Origin: a virus
Taxonomy: Duplodnaviria; Caudoviricetes
Virus record (IMG/VR): IMGVR_UViG_3300031993_000053
Location: 9,502-73,501 of that record
DNA length: 64,000 nucleotides
Strand: one strand, 5' to 3'
Shown here piece after piece: positions 58,545-63,760 of this stretch. The position numbers were made by a program, and so were the translations under genes. The stretch's first letter is position 1; every line of letters starts with the position of its first letter. The notes beneath the pieces were generated by a model. It did no database searches, was not told the DNA's origin, and saw only the letters and a list, made by a program, of their open reading frames with translations.

Positions 58545-58573
58545 TATTATATCATGTTTGTGTTTACTTGTAA
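58545..58573 (-). promoter_or_regulatory. canonical promoter of the virion operon
   Basis: TTTACA-N17-TATAAT (TG-extended) on minus strand, back-to-back with first AACGGCTTA promoter. Confidence 0.8.
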
Positions 58574-58732
58574 ATATCTAACGGCTTAAAAAATAAATTA
58601 ATTTTGATATAATATAAGGTTAGGCCTTTGAGGAACTCTGCTTCGCAAGAGTCTCTCATTTTTTATTAACGGCTTATTTAGCTAATATTATATGATATAA
58701 TATTAGTGTAAAATAATTAAGGAGGAATATAT

Positions 58733-58984
58733 ATGAAATTATTTATTTTAACACATTGTGCAGTTGAGGAAAATTACACACCACAAATATTTAAAACTAA
58801 AAAAGAAGCACAAAATAAAATGAAAGATATGGTTGATAGTCTTGTTTATGAGAGAGATTCAGATGGTGATGTGATTGACCAATACACAGATAATTTTGAA
58901 GTGTATGATAATCGTGCGGAAATTATTTATCCAGATGACACTTATGATTGTTTAGAAATATTTGAAGTTGAAATAGATATTTAA
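58733..58984 (+). CDS. small acidic early protein
   Basis: AAGGAGG RBS; own promoter. Confidence 0.75.
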   Translation: MKLFILTHCAVEENYTPQIFKTKKEAQNKMKDMVDSLVYERDSDGDVIDQYTDNFEVYDNRAEIIYPDDTYDCLEIFEVEIDI

Positions 58985-59134
58985 ATATTAACGGCTTATT
59001 TATATATTATAATATGATAAAATATATGTGATGTTTAGTGAGTTCCATCTATAAATAAAACTCGGGGAAATAATGGCCGTGATTCCCGAAATAAAACACA
59101 TTCGGCTAGCAAAGAAAGGTTAGGTAAAATTATA

Positions 59135-59464
59135 ATGGAAAAGCATGAAATTAAAACTGTTAAAACTAAGGAAGAATTAAAGTCTCTTTATGATGGATGG
59201 GCAATGACATGGGAAGGATTACGAGAACAAGATTTTGAACTCGCATGTCAAGAATGCGGAAGTAAAGAAACAACTGGTTATATTATCAAAGGAAAAACCA
59301 TGAATGAGATTTGCCATTTAAAAGGTAGTAATGCTTACCCAGACGATTTGAATATTTTTGCGATTGATAATTATCATGGACTCGCAATCCAATACGGTGC
59401 AAGATGGATGACCGATATTGTTGATAATAATGGAGCAAGAGAACAATATAATCCTTTCAAATAA
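59135..59464 (+). CDS. small early protein
   Basis: AGAAAGGTTAGGT RBS; own promoter and terminator. Confidence 0.75.
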   Translation: MEKHEIKTVKTKEELKSLYDGWAMTWEGLREQDFELACQECGSKETTGYIIKGKTMNEICHLKGSNAYPDDLNIFAIDNYHGLAIQYGARWMTDIVDNNGAREQYNPFK

Positions 59465-59484
59465 TCCATATATACTTCTTTCTA

Positions 59485-59525
59485 AATAAAGGTTTGAGTT
59501 AACTACTCAGACCTTTATTTTTTAT
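59485..59525 (+). terminator. intrinsic terminator
   Basis: AATAAAGGTTTGAGT-taact-ACTCAGACCTTTATT followed by T-run. Confidence 0.8.
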
Positions 59526-59534
59526 TTACTTTTA

Positions 59535-59975
59535 AAAACGGCAACGGCTTACAAAACCCAACGGCTTACAAATAGTAAGTGATTGTTATTGAATTTGCTC
59601 TTTTTATTAACGGCTTATTTTTAGGTTAATTTCTGATATAATATTATTGTAAATAATTAATAATAAATATTACTTAATTTATTAATTAATAAATTAAGTA
59701 GTAAATATTAACGGCTTAATTATATTATATAATATGATATAATATTATATGTAAAATGAATTAAGTAATAAATTATTTACTTAGTAATAAAGTATCATTT
59801 ATTAACGGCTTAATTAAGTCTTAAAATATGATATAATATTATTGTAAAATAAATTAAATAAATTAATTTATTTTAAATATAGAAATATTATATCTTAGAT
59901 TAACGGCTTTATTAAAAAGTAATTTATGATATAATATTATATGTAAAATAAATTATTAATAATTTATTTTAACTT
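59535..59975. repeat. array of four about 95-100-bp promoter+palindrome units, preceded by three bare AACGGC boxes
   Basis: Units start at 59609, 59710, 59804, 59902; perfect palindrome TACTTAATTTATTAATTAATAAATTAAGTA near 59670. Confidence 0.75.
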
Positions 59976-59999
59976 GCCAAAGAAAGGATGGTTAGGATT

Positions 60000-60284
60000 A
60001 TGGCAAGATTATTAACAAAAAAAGAAGTAGAACAAATTAAGGAAGTTGAAGCTCAAATTGAACTTTTGAAAAAACAACAACAAAAGTACAAGCAAGAGAT
60101 TTTGAAAAGAATGCAAAGTACGGGTCTAAAGAAAGTTGAGATCGATGATGTGACTTTTACAGTCAAAGAAGCTTTTGAAAGAACAGATTTAGACAAGAAA
60201 AAATTAGAAGTTGATTTTCCTGAACTAGTTAAAAAGTATTCAAAGACAACTCAAGTTGCTGAATCACTATTGATTAAACTATAA
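60000..60284 (+). CDS. coiled-coil early protein (Gp157/Gam-like)
   Basis: Coiled coil, then ..T...R..LDKKKL..DFPEL..KYSK.T....L.IK. Confidence 0.6.
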   Translation: MARLLTKKEVEQIKEVEAQIELLKKQQQKYKQEILKRMQSTGLKKVEIDDVTFTVKEAFERTDLDKKKLEVDFPELVKKYSKTTQVAESLLIKL

Positions 60285-60403
60285 GCTAATAGGGGCCCCG
60301 CCCCTTAGCGAATAGTTAACGGCTTAAATCATATATAAATATATGATATAATATATGTGTAAATTAGTGAATAATAAAATCTTAAGAAAGGGTAGGTAAA
60401 TGT

Positions 60404-61492
60404 ATGGATTTAAGATTTATTAAAACTGCTAAGGGTGGCGTAATGAGTATTCATTGCGGCAAAATCGTAACAACCAATATTTTTGATAAAGAAGGTTGGC
60501 TAGAAATTACAACAGATGATGCTAAGAAATTATTTAAATATGCATGTAGACAATTCCGTCATTGTTGTGATGAAAGTGATGAAAGAAAAGTATTAAATGA
60601 TTTAATTGTTGAACTTAAAAAAGTTTATACTAGTATTGGAGTTTTTGCTAAACCATATCGTAGAACAAAATCAAGTGTAAGTAGTTATTCAGTTAAAGAT
60701 GATGGAATTGAATATGATGGAGTAATTGATATCTCTGGTAAAAGTGAAGATGGTCCTCAACCTGAAAAAGCTGAAGTACCAATTGAAAAAAGACGTAAAG
60801 CTGTGTGTGAAAAAATCATTAAATTCTTTAGTGAATTTACATTTGTACCAGCAACAAGATTTGTAAATACTCTAAGTAAGTTTACAACTCAAAAAGACGC
60901 TAAGACATATATATCAAATTATATGAACTTAACAGACCACCCAGATAAAAATGAAATTAATGAAAAAATCAAATCAAGTGAATTTGGTGATATCTTAAAA
61001 GAATTATTTGATTGCCGTGGTGATAAAGTAATCAATAAACGATTAGAAATATATTATGGCCCTCAAGGAACTGGTAAAACAACTGAAGCTATCAATTTAT
61101 ATCCAGAAGCAAATATCACTGTTTGTAATGAATTAATGGACTCAGACTCAATCATGAAAGTATTTGATTTTAATGATGCAAATGGTCATCCCGTATTTAA
61201 GCCAAGTCAATTACAACTAGATATGATTGCTGGCCGCCCCCATATACTTGATGAAATGAACTTACTTCCACTAAATACTTTAAGATTTTTACAAGGTATT
61301 TTAGATAGTAAAGAAAAGATTAATTATGAAGGCAAAGAAATTGTTATTGCAGATGGTTTCAAAATTATTGGAACTATGAACTTAGTTGTAAATGGTCAAG
61401 TTTTTAGTTTACCTGAACCAATTGTTGACCGTGCCCAAAAATTAAAAGAATATACTGCAAATGAAGACCTACTTGCTAACTTTGCTTTCTAG
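60404..61492 (+). CDS. MoxR/dynein-related AAA+ ATPase
   Basis: YGPQGTGKTT, ILDEMNL, IIGTMN, LPEPIVDR. Confidence 0.88.
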   Translation: MDLRFIKTAKGGVMSIHCGKIVTTNIFDKEGWLEITTDDAKKLFKYACRQFRHCCDESDERKVLNDLIVELKKVYTSIGVFAKPYRRTKSSVSSYSVKDDGIEYDGVIDISGKSEDGPQPEKAEVPIEKRRKAVCEKIIKFFSEFTFVPATRFVNTLSKFTTQKDAKTYISNYMNLTDHPDKNEINEKIKSSEFGDILKELFDCRGDKVINKRLEIYYGPQGTGKTTEAINLYPEANITVCNELMDSDSIMKVFDFNDANGHPVFKPSQLQLDMIAGRPHILDEMNLLPLNTLRFLQGILDSKEKINYEGKEIVIADGFKIIGTMNLVVNGQVFSLPEPIVDRAQKLKEYTANEDLLANFAF

Positions 61493-61577
61493 CAAGGTTA
61501 GTAAGATACGGCTTATATAATAAAGAAAAAGTGATAAAATATATATAGAAATTAAGTAAGAAAGGTTAGGTTAGGTT

Positions 61578-63311
61578 ATGCTTAGTTTTGAAAAAGTAAA
61601 TAGTATTTTAGTGACTCTTCCAGTTGGTTATTATTTAGGTAGAAGAATTAACTGTGAATTAGAAGACTCTGACCAATCATATCATGACCCATTTAATGAT
61701 TTGATTGTTATTGGATTTAAACAATTACCATGTGTAGAAATTGAAGGTGACCTTGACGATGAAGAAATTGAAAAAGATATTCGTTGTATGTTATACCATG
61801 AAATATCACATGTATTAGCTACACCAAAAGAAATGTCACACTTTTATGTAAGTGATATTGCTGACAGGGCTTTTAGTATGGCAACTCATACATCAATAGA
61901 ATCATCTGCAAAGGCTAAAAATTATAAAAGAAGAATTAATGATTTTAATGAAAAAGATGTTCATGATATTCTTAATATCTTTGAAGACCAAAGAATTGAA
62001 ACTATATTTGGAAGCTATTTCAAGAATGTAGATTTTCCAAACTATGTTAAAAAAGTAAATCATTACGAAGGTCCAACTAAGCCAGTAGATACATTTGATG
62101 CCTTCTATCAAATTGTAAGATTTAATGATGGTCCAAAAGAATTTGTAAAACGAGTATATAATATTATTAAAGATTTTACGGTTGTAAAAGGTTATGATCA
62201 AGCAAATAGATATTTTGCAAAAGTTATGATATTATTCCTTGATATTCAAGATTATTATAAAATGGATGCAAAATGTGAAGAAAGAATTGCAAGTGAAGCA
62301 GGGGCCCCTACCAAAATTACAATCAAACTTGGTAGTAGCAAAGACACTCCTGATATTGAAATGCCAGATGCTCTAGATATTGACTTAAATAATGTTGAAA
62401 TAGAAATTGAAGATACAGATAAAGAAGAAGGTGATGGTGAAGATTCGCCAGCACATCATGATACTTCTAAAGAAACATCAGAAAAGTCAAAAGAGATTGA
62501 AGATGATAAATCAAAAATCTCTAAAGAAGATTTAGAAAAATTATTAGATGCAATTAAAGATTATTTAGTAAGATGCAAAAAGAGTATTATAGATGAAGAT
62601 ATAAAAGCTGACTATAAAAACGAACCACTAGATAATAAAGTTAAAACAATTATTTTGAATGCTCGTAGAAAGAAAGGTCTAACAGCTTCAAGCACACAAA
62701 CACATTTTGGTAAACTTAATCCAAAATATGTTGGTAGAAAAAGAATTGAAGATTATAAGTGGTTTGATAAATCATTAGATGGCGAAAAGAATAGCTCAAG
62801 TAAAATCCAACTAAATCTATTCGTAGATATTTCAGGTAGCTTTTCAGGTAGTCAGCAAAAGATTAATGAATTATTGTATAGTCTAAATGAATTACAAAAA
62901 CGAAATAAAGACTTCACATGCCGATTAGTGACTATGGGTAACGAGAATATCTTAAGAGATAGAGTTAGTGCGGTAATTTGTAGAGAAGGAAATTATTTAA
63001 AGAATGAAATAATTGATATCTATAAAAAAGTACAAAACAAAAATGCCACTAATTATAACATTGCGGTATTTGATGGTGATGCACAAAGTTTTGATGGAAT
63101 TAGTAGCTGGTCTGCAAGAGAAAGAATGAGAAAGACTCATGAAAAAGCTTGGTCAGCATGGAACCATCCAAACTGTGTAATCATTTCAGACCCATCTAAT
63201 CAAAGAGAATTTGATAAATGGTCACCAATTGCAAAACGAATTTATACATATGACTATGTAAGTAAATTAGAAGATAATATTATTAAAGCATTAGAAATGC
63301 TGTTTAAGTAA
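61578..63311 (+). CDS. vWA (MIDAS) protein with N-terminal HExxH module (CobT-like)
   Basis: YHEISH...NIFEDQRIE; FVDISGSF; VFDGD. Confidence 0.85.
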   Translation: MLSFEKVNSILVTLPVGYYLGRRINCELEDSDQSYHDPFNDLIVIGFKQLPCVEIEGDLDDEEIEKDIRCMLYHEISHVLATPKEMSHFYVSDIADRAFSMATHTSIESSAKAKNYKRRINDFNEKDVHDILNIFEDQRIETIFGSYFKNVDFPNYVKKVNHYEGPTKPVDTFDAFYQIVRFNDGPKEFVKRVYNIIKDFTVVKGYDQANRYFAKVMILFLDIQDYYKMDAKCEERIASEAGAPTKITIKLGSSKDTPDIEMPDALDIDLNNVEIEIEDTDKEEGDGEDSPAHHDTSKETSEKSKEIEDDKSKISKEDLEKLLDAIKDYLVRCKKSIIDEDIKADYKNEPLDNKVKTIILNARRKKGLTASSTQTHFGKLNPKYVGRKRIEDYKWFDKSLDGEKNSSSKIQLNLFVDISGSFSGSQQKINELLYSLNELQKRNKDFTCRLVTMGNENILRDRVSAVICREGNYLKNEIIDIYKKVQNKNATNYNIAVFDGDAQSFDGISSWSARERMRKTHEKAWSAWNHPNCVIISDPSNQREFDKWSPIAKRIYTYDYVSKLEDNIIKALEMLFK

Positions 63312-63322
63312 AGACTCTTGAC

Positions 63323-63412
63323 TTAGTTGAGAGTCTAATAGGTGGAACAAGTAGTGAAATCCTAACCTACCTAACCTAAGCTATTTGTTTCACCTCTTAG
63401 GCTCTCAACTAA
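63323..63412 (+). ncRNA. candidate anti-RBS hairpin sRNA
   Basis: About 31-bp stem; 26-nt loop TGAAATCCTAACCTACCTAACCTAAG antisense to early-gene leaders. Confidence 0.6.
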
Positions 63413-63481
63413 CGGTTTATATAATATATAGAATATGATAAAATATAATTACAATAAGTTAAGAAAGGTTAGGTAAAAGAA

Positions 63482-63760
63482 ATGACTTATCAAGAAATTT
63501 TAGAAAGAGCAAAAAGATTTGACATCCCAGTTTGGCAATTATTAGCGGCAAATGAAGTTAATTGTCAATTTGAAGATTTAAGTAGTGAAAATTTTGAACT
63601 ATTATCTGATTTTGTTTATGATTGGATTATGGATACAGATATGCCTGTAGATGAATTATGCCGATTAATTAAAGATTGTTTAGAAGATAAAGTCTTCACA
63701 TTAGATGACATTAAGAATGACCCTGAATTTGTAAGAGACGAATTAAATGAGAGGATTTAA
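63482..63760 (+). CDS. small acidic early protein
   Basis: AGAAAGGTTAGGT RBS; own promoter. Confidence 0.75.
   Translation: MTYQEILERAKRFDIPVWQLLAANEVNCQFEDLSSENFELLSDFVYDWIMDTDMPVDELCRLIKDCLEDKVFTLDDIKNDPEFVRDELNERI

What the first reader, a model, noticed from the sequence alone, without database searches (positions are those of the whole stretch)
63323..63412. Hairpin RNA whose loop is antisense to the shared leader of five early genes
Seen: stem 63323-63354/63381-63412 with G.U pairs (RNA-level conservation) presents the loop UGAAAUCCUAACCUACCUAACCUAAG. Its reverse complement matches the post-SD motif of early genes: AGGTTAGGTA (59118; 63466), GGTTAGGATT (59990), TTAGGTTAGG (before 61578) and GGTAGGT (before 60404). 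Middle/late genes use plain AGGAG-type RBSs. It lies in the 3' UTR of the AAA-vWA unit. Established: CU-rich-loop sRNAs in Firmicutes repress by RBS pairing. Inference: a phage-encoded multi-target sRNA providing negative feedback that shuts off the early regulon; alternatively the minus-strand RNA is a decoy for a GGUUAG-binding protein.
Basis: partly seen in the sequence, partly recalled or inferred. Interest (0 to 1): 0.82.

Follow-up and report, generated by a model that had tools for sequence, protein, structure and literature searches.

The report
Phage RNA hairpin mirroring early ribosome sites
An uncultured cattle-gut phage and four relatives keep a long RNA hairpin behind an early ATPase/vWA gene pair whose loop is the exact mirror of a private sequence tag in the ribosome-binding sites of those genes, so it is probably an RNA brake on early-gene translation, though no experiment has tested this.

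Summary
Window 63323-63412 folds into a 30-pair hairpin (-47.8 kcal/mol, z -7.2) with a 26-nt loop holding two CCUAACC copies. GGTTAGG occurs 8 times in the window against 1.8 expected. Six copies lie in leaders behind early promoters and two (complementary) lie in the loop.

Four distinct relatives carry the same hairpin directly behind the homologous gene. It shows 97% pairing, 12 pairs with compensatory changes and 21 G.U against 3 A.C cells, so it is a plus-strand RNA. The loops vary from 15 to 34 nt, and all keep CUAACC. In every locus the loop's best partners are the ribosome-binding sites of the vWA and AAA_5 genes just upstream. Relatives without the hairpin lack the tag.

Best reading: an anti-ribosome-site element in the 3'UTR or between cistrons. 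It would work like the icaR 3'UTR or P1 c4 RNA, repressing its own operon and, in this phage, four more tagged early genes.

It is not an intrinsic terminator, and a minus-strand decoy is disfavoured. A separate sRNA, its expression and repression are all unshown.

It matches no Rfam family. The scan has noted similar anti-RBS hairpins in unrelated phages. I class it as a new variant of a known kind.

The parts
63323..63412 (+). Conserved long RNA hairpin: 5' arm 63323-63354, loop 63355-63380, 3' arm 63381-63412
   Evidence: MFE -47.8 kcal/mol, z -7.2. Homologous hairpins in L004, L006, L088 and L007/L050 show 97.3% pairing, 12 pairs changed on both sides and 0/500 shuffles as good. The + strand folds better than the - strand in all five. 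Single copy in the genome.
63355..63380 (+). Apical loop with two anti-tag copies CCUAACC (63361-63367, 63370-63376). CUAACC is invariant in all five members.
   Evidence: A genome-wide duplex scan puts early RBSs at the top of the loop's partners. Loop shuffles reach the observed energy in 2/2000.
63312..63321 (+). Segment right behind the stop codon that can pair with the base of the 5' arm (63326-63336). Possible alternative helix, weakly supported.
   Evidence: 94% of cells paired in 4 distinct sequences, with 2 pairs changed on both sides, but 125/500 shuffles do as well.
61559..61580 (+). Leader, tagged RBS (AGAAAGGTTAGGTTAGGTT) and start codon of the vWA gene. Best predicted partner of the loop.
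   Evidence: Duplex -21.4 kcal/mol, the best non-self hit in the whole genome on both strands, z about -7. Net -19.2 after opening the target.
60385..60406 (+). Leader and degenerate tag (AGAAAGGGTAGGTAA) of the AAA_5 gene
   Evidence: duplex -14.8 to -17.4, net -11.2. The orthologous RBS is one of the top two loop partners in L004, L006 and L050.
63462..63484 (+). Tagged RBS (AGAAAGGTTAGGTAAA) of the 92-aa gene downstream of the hairpin
   Evidence: 10-nt exact complement to the loop. Duplex -15.6, net -14.4. The ortholog in L004 is also tagged.
59113..59137 (+). Tagged RBS of the 109-aa early gene
   Evidence: 10-nt exact complement. Duplex -15.6, net -10.6.
59981..60002 (+). Tagged RBS (AGAAAGGATGGTTAGGATT) of the 98-aa early gene, shown in a 21-nt loop closed by a 7-bp stem
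   Evidence: 10-nt exact complement. Duplex -18.4, net -17.8. Leader fold.
60404..61492 (+). AAA_5 (MoxR-like) ATPase gene, first gene of the regulated pair
   Evidence: Pfam PF07728, E 1.3e-6, above the cutoff.
61578..63311 (+). 577-aa gene with an invariant HExxH motif and a C-terminal vWA fold (DxSGS). The hairpin follows its stop codon.
   Evidence: Invariant columns in the alignment. AlphaFold model pLDDT 74. Foldseek top hits are vWF A1, integrin I domains, Rea1/MDN1 MIDAS and NorD, E about 1e-4. Pfam alone does not call it.
63411..63444 (+). Next early promoter (AACGGTTTA box plus TGATAAAAT), abutting the 3' end of the stem
58615..58624 (+). Extra copy of the tag (AAGGTTAGG), about where a promoter-plus-terminator unit (58580-58665) would start. 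Not conserved in L006.

Best explanation
The hairpin is a structured part of the phage's early plus-strand RNA. It lies in the 3'UTR of the AAA_5-vWA unit, and in two relatives in the spacer before the next cistron. Its large unpaired loop carries CCUAACC. This is the complement of a private tag, (A)GGUUAGG, fused to the Shine-Dalgarno sequence of the AAA_5 and vWA genes. In this phage the same tag sits on four further small early genes.

Proposed mechanism (inferred). The hairpin is made only after the polymerase has passed the whole operon. Its loop then pairs with the tagged ribosome-binding sites. Pairing could occur on the same mRNA in cis or on other tagged early mRNAs in trans. It covers the SD and, for vWA, the start codon, and so limits further initiation. 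This would be a delayed negative feedback. The 30-bp stem probably also serves as a 3' stabiliser or as an RNase III substrate.

Shown: structure, strand, conservation, complementarity and co-occurrence.
Inferred: transcription, pairing in vivo, the sign of the effect, and whether it acts in cis or in trans.
For: 1. Structure under selection. Five distinct hairpins sit at the same place behind orthologous genes that are only 52-56% identical. There are 30 pairs, 97.3% of cells are paired, 12 pairs changed on both sides, and 0/500 shuffles do as well.
2. RNA and strand. There are 21 G.U cells against 3 A.C cells. The + strand folds 8-16 kcal/mol better in all five.
3. Loop kept while the rest drifts. 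Loop length runs from 15 to 34 nt, but CUAACC is invariant.
4. Targets.
- In unbiased scans of whole loci on both strands, the vWA RBS ranks first in the window genome (-21.4, z -7).
- In L006 and L050 the top two partners are the vWA and AAA_5 RBSs. In L004 the AAA_5 RBS ranks first.
- Composition-matched loop shuffles reach the observed energy in 2, 59, 2 and 14 of 2000 trials.
- Net energies after opening the target are -10.6 to -19.2 kcal/mol.
5. The tag is rare and placed. GGTTAGG occurs 8 times against 1.8 expected, only in leaders behind AACGGCTTA-type promoters and in the loop.
6. Co-occurrence. All four testable hairpin-bearing loci have tagged AAA_5 and vWA RBSs. Five nearer relatives without the hairpin have none, and 45 further loci show no analogue. 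The bearers form one clade with 100/100 support.
7. Register shift. In L050 the leaders read GAGGUUAG(A) and the loop reads CUAACCUC.
8. Precedent. The icaR 3'UTR pairs with its own SD and creates an RNase III site (PMC3868564). P1/P7 c4 RNA loops pair with the ant RBS region (PMC12197685).
Against: - There is no expression or end-mapping data. The one RNA run found holds only sparse low-depth contigs and none over the hairpin.
- All bearers form one clade, so the co-occurrence of tag and loop counts as a single evolutionary event.
- The shared core AGGUUAG/CUAACCU never changes, so true loop-leader covariation rests on one lineage (L050). The cross-phage energy matrix is not cleanly diagonal.
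- In L004 the match is only 8-9 nt (shuffle 59/2000).
- A C-rich loop will pair with G-rich SDs to some degree anyway.
- A 30-bp stem is far more than is needed to display a loop, which suggests another or an additional function.
Confidence: 0.55

Rival explanations
1. The element is only an RNA processing or stability element. A long duplex between early cistrons is cut by host RNase III or blocks 3' exonucleases, as at the T7 early R-sites. On this reading the loop's likeness to the leaders has no regulatory role.
For: The stem has about 30 nearly perfect pairs with a conserved internal mismatch and a conserved U.G pair, much longer than is needed to show a loop. In L006 and L007/L050 it lies between cistrons with no promoter behind it. 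From my own knowledge, not checked here: T7 and SP82 early mRNAs are processed at such hairpins.
Against: It does not explain why CUAACC is invariant in loops that otherwise differ in length and sequence. It does not explain why the loop's best partners in each whole locus are the operon's own RBSs, or why the tag exists only in phages that have the hairpin. It is compatible with the best explanation as a second function.
Confidence: 0.2
2. The element is a free-standing trans-acting small RNA that shuts off the whole early regulon. It would be released by processing or by its own promoter, with the operon's own genes being only two of many targets.
For: This phage has six tagged leaders with 7-11 nt exact complements, five of them 10-11 nt and AAA_5 only 7. 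The two tandem anti-tags in the loop could serve several targets. Net energies are typical of sRNA-mRNA pairs.
Against: There is no promoter of the phage's early class and no good sigma-70 match in front of the hairpin, and no U-tract behind it. In L006 and L050 only the two operon genes are tagged, so the regulon-wide role is not the conserved one.
Confidence: 0.12
3. The element acts at the DNA level. GGTTAGG would be an operator for a phage or host DNA-binding protein, and the palindrome would be a cruciform or protein site such as an origin or recombination site.
For: A short word recurs next to promoters. The inverted repeat is present in DNA as well.
Against: G.U cells outnumber A.C cells 21 to 3, and those pairs would be mismatches in DNA. 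The tag is always fused to the SD, 2-10 nt before the start codon, not at a fixed distance from the promoter. The single reverse-oriented site lies exactly in the loop of a covarying RNA helix.
Confidence: 0.06
4. The element is an intrinsic transcription terminator of the AAA_5-vWA unit and nothing more.
For: It lies behind a stop codon. In the window, L004 and L088 a new promoter follows it.
Against: There is no U-tract behind the stem: CGGUUUAUAUAAU in the window and AAUCAAAUAAG in L007. The loop is 15-34 nt, and the terminator scan does not call it although it calls 59484-59520. In L006 and L050 the next gene follows without a promoter, so transcription must read through.
Confidence: 0.05
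5. The minus-strand transcript is the active RNA, showing GGUUAGG as a decoy for a protein that binds the leaders.
For: The loop read on the minus strand repeats the leader tag twice.
Against: The minus strand folds 8-16 kcal/mol worse in all five members. G.U pairs become A.C mismatches. There is no early-class promoter on the minus strand anywhere in the genome.
Confidence: 0.02

Closest known systems
icaR mRNA 3'UTR anti-SD motif of Staphylococcus aureus (PMC3868564)
   Same: A C-rich motif in the 3'UTR pairs with the Shine-Dalgarno region of the same mRNA. There it blocks the initiation complex and creates an RNase III substrate. Here too the element lies behind the stop codon, and its best predicted partner is the RBS of its own gene.
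   Different: There is no sequence relation. Here the motif sits in the loop of a 30-bp conserved hairpin. It recognises a private tag (GGUUAGG) next to the SD rather than the generic SD. It has two RBSs of the operon, and in this phage four more genes, as candidate targets. It is phage-encoded, and nothing has been tested.
c4 antisense RNA of phages P1 and P7 (as reviewed in PMC12197685)
   Same: A phage RNA whose loops are complementary to the RBS region of a target that is not encoded opposite to it. From my own knowledge: c4 is co-transcribed with its target.
   Different: Nothing in the region reached any Rfam family's gathering score, and the seven sub-threshold hits do not include a c4 family. 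c4 lies upstream of its target and controls immunity in a temperate phage. Here the element lies downstream of its targets in a putative early lytic operon.
C-rich-loop sRNAs of Bacillota (S. aureus RNAIII hairpins, RsaE/RoxS); from my own knowledge
   Same: Unpaired C-rich loops pair with SD regions of several mRNAs. For RNAIII this happens with help from RNase III.
   Different: Those are separate transcripts with their own promoters and terminators and carry UCCC motifs. Here I found no promoter or terminator of the element's own, and the motif is CCUAACC.
T4 RegB endoribonuclease (PMC1702504) and, from my own knowledge, T4 RegA translational repressor
   Same: Phage-encoded shut-off of many early mRNAs through a signal at the ribosome-binding site. 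RegB cuts GGAG in early SDs.
   Different: Those act through proteins. Here the proposed effector is an RNA, and the signal is a dedicated tag.
RNase III processing hairpins between early genes of T7 and SP82 (my own knowledge) and PeSL promoter/stem-loop cassettes of T4-type phages (PMC2839356)
   Same: A stem-loop between early genes, and in three of the five members directly in front of an early promoter.
   Different: PeSLs are short terminators repeated many times per genome. This hairpin is single-copy and not terminator-like, and it has a conserved loop with complementary targets.

Membership tests
Any Rfam 15 family | Covariance-model score at or above the family's gathering threshold | tested here: not met
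   Only sub-threshold miRNA-precursor models hit the hairpin (22 bits against a gathering score of 100). That reflects a long hairpin and nothing more.
Intrinsic (Rho-independent) terminator | G+C-rich stem with a small loop, followed at once by a U-tract | tested here: not met
   The loop is 15-34 nt and no U-tract follows the stem in the window, L006 or L007. The terminator scan does not call it.
Intrinsic (Rho-independent) terminator | Downstream genes need their own promoter | tested here: not met
   In L006 and L007/L050 the next RBS follows the hairpin within about 25-35 nt, with no promoter.
icaR-type 3'UTR anti-SD element (works-like, not homology) | Located in the 3'UTR of the mRNA whose SD it matches | tested here: met
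   The stem starts 12 nt behind the vWA stop codon. The best partner genome-wide is the vWA RBS.
icaR-type 3'UTR anti-SD element (works-like, not homology) | Pairing blocks the initiation complex and gives an RNase III substrate | not testable with these tools
   This needs toeprinting, reporter fusions and RNase III assays.
Trans-acting sRNA with C-rich loops (RNAIII/RsaE/RoxS type) | Independent transcription unit with its own promoter and terminator | tested here: inconclusive
   No early-class box or strong sigma-70 match in front, and no U-tract behind. Release by processing cannot be excluded without RNA data.
Trans-acting sRNA with C-rich loops (RNAIII/RsaE/RoxS type) | Unpaired C-rich motif complementary to the SD regions of several mRNAs | tested here: met
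   Six tagged leaders in this genome carry exact complements of 7 nt (AAA_5) and 10-11 nt (the other five). Net energies for the five leaders inside the window are -10.6 to -19.2 kcal/mol.
RNase III processing site of phage early mRNA | About 20 bp or more of nearly continuous duplex in an early transcript | tested here: met
   30 pairs, 97% conserved pairing.
RNase III processing site of phage early mRNA | Cleavage by RNase III | not testable with these tools
   The host is unknown. This needs an enzyme assay or 5'/3'-end mapping.
PeSL cassette (T4-type phages, PMC2839356) | The same promoter plus terminator stem-loop cassette repeated many times in the genome | tested here: not met
   The covariance model finds one copy in the 73.5-kb genome. 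The early promoters recur, but without this hairpin.

The most novel reading that the evidence does not exclude
The phage uses a sequence-addressed RNA shut-off system. A short private tag (GGUUAGG) is inserted into the Shine-Dalgarno region and marks a set of early mRNAs. One hairpin, made only at the end of the AAA_5-vWA operon, reads that tag and closes all tagged ribosome-binding sites after a delay set by transcription. This would be an RNA counterpart of T4 RegA/RegB. Taken with the similar but unrelated hairpins that this scan noted in other phages, it would belong to a widespread and so far uncatalogued class of phage anti-RBS RNAs.
Probability: 0.35. Interest if true: 0.78.

Novelty: new variant of a known kind. 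Interest (0 to 1): 0.62.

Why it matters
How lytic phages of gut Bacillota-type hosts switch off their early genes is largely unknown. The textbook cases, T4 RegA and RegB, use proteins. A conserved RNA that mirrors a private tag in early ribosome-binding sites would be an RNA-only solution with a built-in delay.

It would also give a simple and portable design: a tag plus an anti-tag hairpin, for pulse-limited expression. The claim can be tested directly with reporter fusions and compensatory mutations.

The element also defines a new structured RNA family that is absent from Rfam.

Tried and rejected
- **GenBank phages.** blastn of the region and tblastn of the 577-aa protein found nothing. 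The portal protein has only matches below 30% identity, so there are no cultured relatives.
- **IMG/VR with the single protein.** No relative found.
- **IMG/VR DNA pattern for the hairpin.** There were 26 hits, all chance. None scores with the covariance model.
- **Covariance model over about 1.2 Mb of related loci and MAG contigs.** It finds only the five known members.
- **RNA evidence.** One bovine-gut metatranscriptome run holds 5% of the words. After laying the reads it gives a few contigs at 2x depth at 59.6-60.3, 62.5-62.7 and 63.57-63.82 kb and none over the hairpin. The DNA run may be the source sample. Neither says anything about expression.
- **Analogous device in more distant relatives.** I looked for a complement between the 220 nt behind the vWA gene and its leader. 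Only AT-rich chance matches turned up.
- **Cross-phage loop/leader energy matrix as a covariation test.** It is not cleanly diagonal, because the 7-nt core is shared. Only L050 prefers its own loop.
- **Alternative helix between 63312-63321 and the 5' arm.** It is well paired but not better than shuffles with four sequences.
- **Small transcript at 58614-58665 starting with the tag.** It is plausible in this phage, but the homologous place in L006 has neither the tag nor a terminator.
- **Pfam and PDB sequence searches for the 577-aa protein.** No significant hit. Only the fold search shows the vWA domain.
- **A promoter of the hairpin's own.** TTGACT at 63318 has no -10 at a workable spacing. 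The 9/12 match at 63250-63278 is at chance level.

Full report
**What the window is**

The window is bases 9502-73501 of a 73.5-kb IMG/VR virus record with 28% G+C. The only DNA run that holds it is a bovine gut metagenome.

No GenBank phage is related at the DNA level or through the 577-aa protein. Distant homologues of that protein (26-36% identity) lie on contigs binned with Lachnospiraceae, Acutalibacteraceae and other Bacillota, and one with a Methanobrevibacter MAG. This is a weak hint that the wider group infects gut Bacillota.

The region 58.5-64 kb is a plus-strand block of small genes. They sit behind a private promoter type: an AACGGCTTA box about 26 nt before an extended -10, TGnTATAAT.

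**The observation**

- Positions 63323-63354 and 63381-63412 pair over 30-31 positions, with three G.U pairs and one U.C mismatch.
- They enclose the 26-nt loop UGAAAUCCUAACCUACCUAACCUAAG.
- The fold is -47.8 kcal/mol with z -7.2.
- GGTTAGG occurs eight times in the window against 1.8 expected. All copies lie within 58618-63473. Six are plus-strand copies in leaders, and two are minus-strand copies that form the loop.
- Exact complements to the loop of 10 nt or more occur in the whole genome only at five ribosome-binding sites of early genes. These are window 59117, 59990, 61566 (11 nt) and 63466, and genome 2401, which lies outside the window.
- The common SD of this phage is AGAAAGG. Only leaders directly behind AACGGCTTA-type promoters extend it to AGAAAGGTTAGGTAA.
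- The hairpin starts 12 nt behind the stop codon of the 577-aa gene. That gene follows an AAA_5 ATPase gene and has an invariant HExxH motif plus a C-terminal vWA fold.

**Relatives**

Homologues of the 577-aa protein exist in metagenome assemblies. The four nearest distinct contigs have 52-56% protein identity. They are L004 (=L005), L006, L088 and L007 (=L050). Each carries a homologous hairpin directly behind the gene.

The alignment gives 30 pairs:

| Measure | Result |
|---|---|
| Cells paired | 97.3% |
| Pairs changed on both sides | 12 |
| Shuffles as good | 0 of 500 |
| Pairing with partners slid by 1-3 columns | 35-58% |
| G.U cells against A.C cells | 21 against 3 |
| Plus-strand advantage in folding energy | 8-16 kcal/mol in all five |

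This is a selected RNA structure on the plus strand, not a DNA palindrome or a minus-strand RNA.

A covariance model finds one copy in the genome. It finds none in about 80 loci of more distant relatives, in 26 IMG/VR pattern hits or in MAG contigs. The hairpin bearers form one clade with 100/100 support.

**The loop and its partners**

The loops differ in length (15, 17, 18, 26 and 34 nt) and in most of their sequence. All keep CUAACC.

I scanned each whole locus, both strands, for the best duplex with its own loop.

- **Window genome:** the top non-self hit is the RBS and start codon of the vWA gene itself (-21.4 kcal/mol, z about -7). The other tagged leaders also rank among the top 30 windows, though a few untagged sites score between them.
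- **L006 and L050:** the top two hits are the vWA and AAA_5 RBSs.
- **L004:** the top hit is the AAA_5 RBS, and the vWA and 92-aa gene RBSs are also high.

Composition-matched loop shuffles reach the observed energy in 2, 59, 2 and 14 of 2000 trials. After paying for target opening, net energies are -10.6 to -19.2 kcal/mol, and the loop itself costs 2.6 to open.

The five nearer relatives without the hairpin (L008, L010, L012, L013, L089) have plain GGAGG-type RBSs and no tag. No analogous device appears in 45 further loci.

In L050 both sides have moved together. The leaders read GAGGUUAG(A) and the loop reads CUAACCUC, so complementarity extends on the other side of the core. That is the only real loop-leader covariation. 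The core itself never varies, and the cross-phage matrix is not cleanly diagonal.

**What it is not**

- **Not an intrinsic terminator.** No U-tract follows the stem, the loop is far too large, and the scan that calls the terminator at 59484-59520 does not call this one. In L006 and L050 the next cistron follows with no promoter, so transcription must pass through the hairpin.
- **Not a member of any Rfam family**.
- **Not a PeSL-type repeated cassette**, because it is single-copy (PMC2839356).

**Most likely mechanism**

The conserved targets are the two genes of the operon that ends in the hairpin, so I favour an anti-RBS element in the 3'UTR or between cistrons. The loop appears only after the polymerase has transcribed 1.8-3 kb. 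It can then fold back on the tagged RBSs of the same mRNA, or meet other tagged mRNAs, and block initiation. The effect would be a delayed negative feedback.

The closest tested model is the icaR 3'UTR of S. aureus. It pairs with its own SD, blocks the initiation complex and creates an RNase III site (PMC3868564). P1/P7 c4 RNA is the closest phage case (PMC12197685).

The tag gives the pairing an address that generic SDs lack.

From my own knowledge: CUAA fits the YUNR U-turn motif that speeds antisense recognition. A 30-bp stem is a typical RNase III substrate, so processing or stabilisation is a likely second function and the main rival.

None of the following is shown: transcription, pairing in vivo, repression, or whether the action is in cis or in trans. 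The single RNA run found is uninformative.

**Context from the scan**

Earlier notes of this scan describe conserved hairpins with anti-RBS loops in unrelated phages: marine T4-like phages, a jumbo phage (there behind an early ATPase gene) and rumen phages. I did not test those. If they hold, this element is one more family of a recurrent kind.

**Verdict**

The element is a new RNA family and a new variant of a known regulatory principle. Interest is 0.62.

Noticed in passing
window 1777, 5261, 12624 and ten sites in 58580-63419 (+ strand only): A private early promoter class: an AACGG(C/T)TTA box about 26 nt before an extended -10 (TGnTATAAT), with no TTGACA-like -35. It never occurs on the minus strand. 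Variants of the box (AAYGRCTTA) also precede early genes in relatives L006, L008 and L013.
   Followed up: partly
window 59540-59940: An array of five or six tandem promoters of this class with no ORFs between them. Several are followed by a very AT-rich hairpin (for example 59668-59703, z -4.5). L006 3540-3880 has a similar array. These may be short non-coding transcripts or a promoter stack.
   Followed up: partly
window 58580-58665: A promoter, then a transcript that would start about AUAAGGUUAGG (it carries the tag), then a terminator hairpin with a U-tract. This would give a small RNA of about 50 nt that could pair with the hairpin loop. The homologous place in L006 has neither the tag nor a terminator.
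   Followed up: partly
window 63312-63336: The 10 nt right behind the vWA stop codon (AGACUCUUGA) can pair with the base of the 5' arm of the big hairpin. The same holds in all relatives, with two compensatory changes, but it is not significant with four sequences. A terminating ribosome would cover this segment, so it could couple hairpin formation to translation.
   Followed up: partly
window 59973-60006: The leader of the 98-aa gene shows its SD and tag in a 21-nt loop closed by a 7-bp stem (CUUGCCA/UGGCAAG) that includes the likely start codon at 60000. This would allow a loop-loop contact with the hairpin. The listed ORF start at 59988 directly abuts the SD, so the later ATG at 60000 is the more likely start.
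   Followed up: partly
window 61578-63311: The 577-aa protein combines an invariant N-terminal HExxH...FEDxRIE metal-site motif, a disordered acidic linker (residues 232-310, pLDDT below 50) and a C-terminal vWA/MIDAS fold (DxSGS). It is paired with a MoxR-like AAA_5 ATPase. Pfam does not recognise it. The family is widespread in rumen and gut phage contigs.
   Followed up: partly
window 58546-58574 (- strand): A near-consensus sigma-70 promoter (TTTACA, 17 nt, TATAAT with TG; 11/12) faces the minus-strand portal/structural block. It lies back to back with the first plus-strand early promoter, so this is the divergent switch region.
   Followed up: no
L008 7560-7600, L010 7614-7670, L013 7557-7580: Relatives without the long hairpin have short GC-rich stem-loops with GNRA-like tetraloops (for example GGGGCGAAAGCCC) at the same place behind the vWA gene, again with no U-tract.
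   Followed up: no
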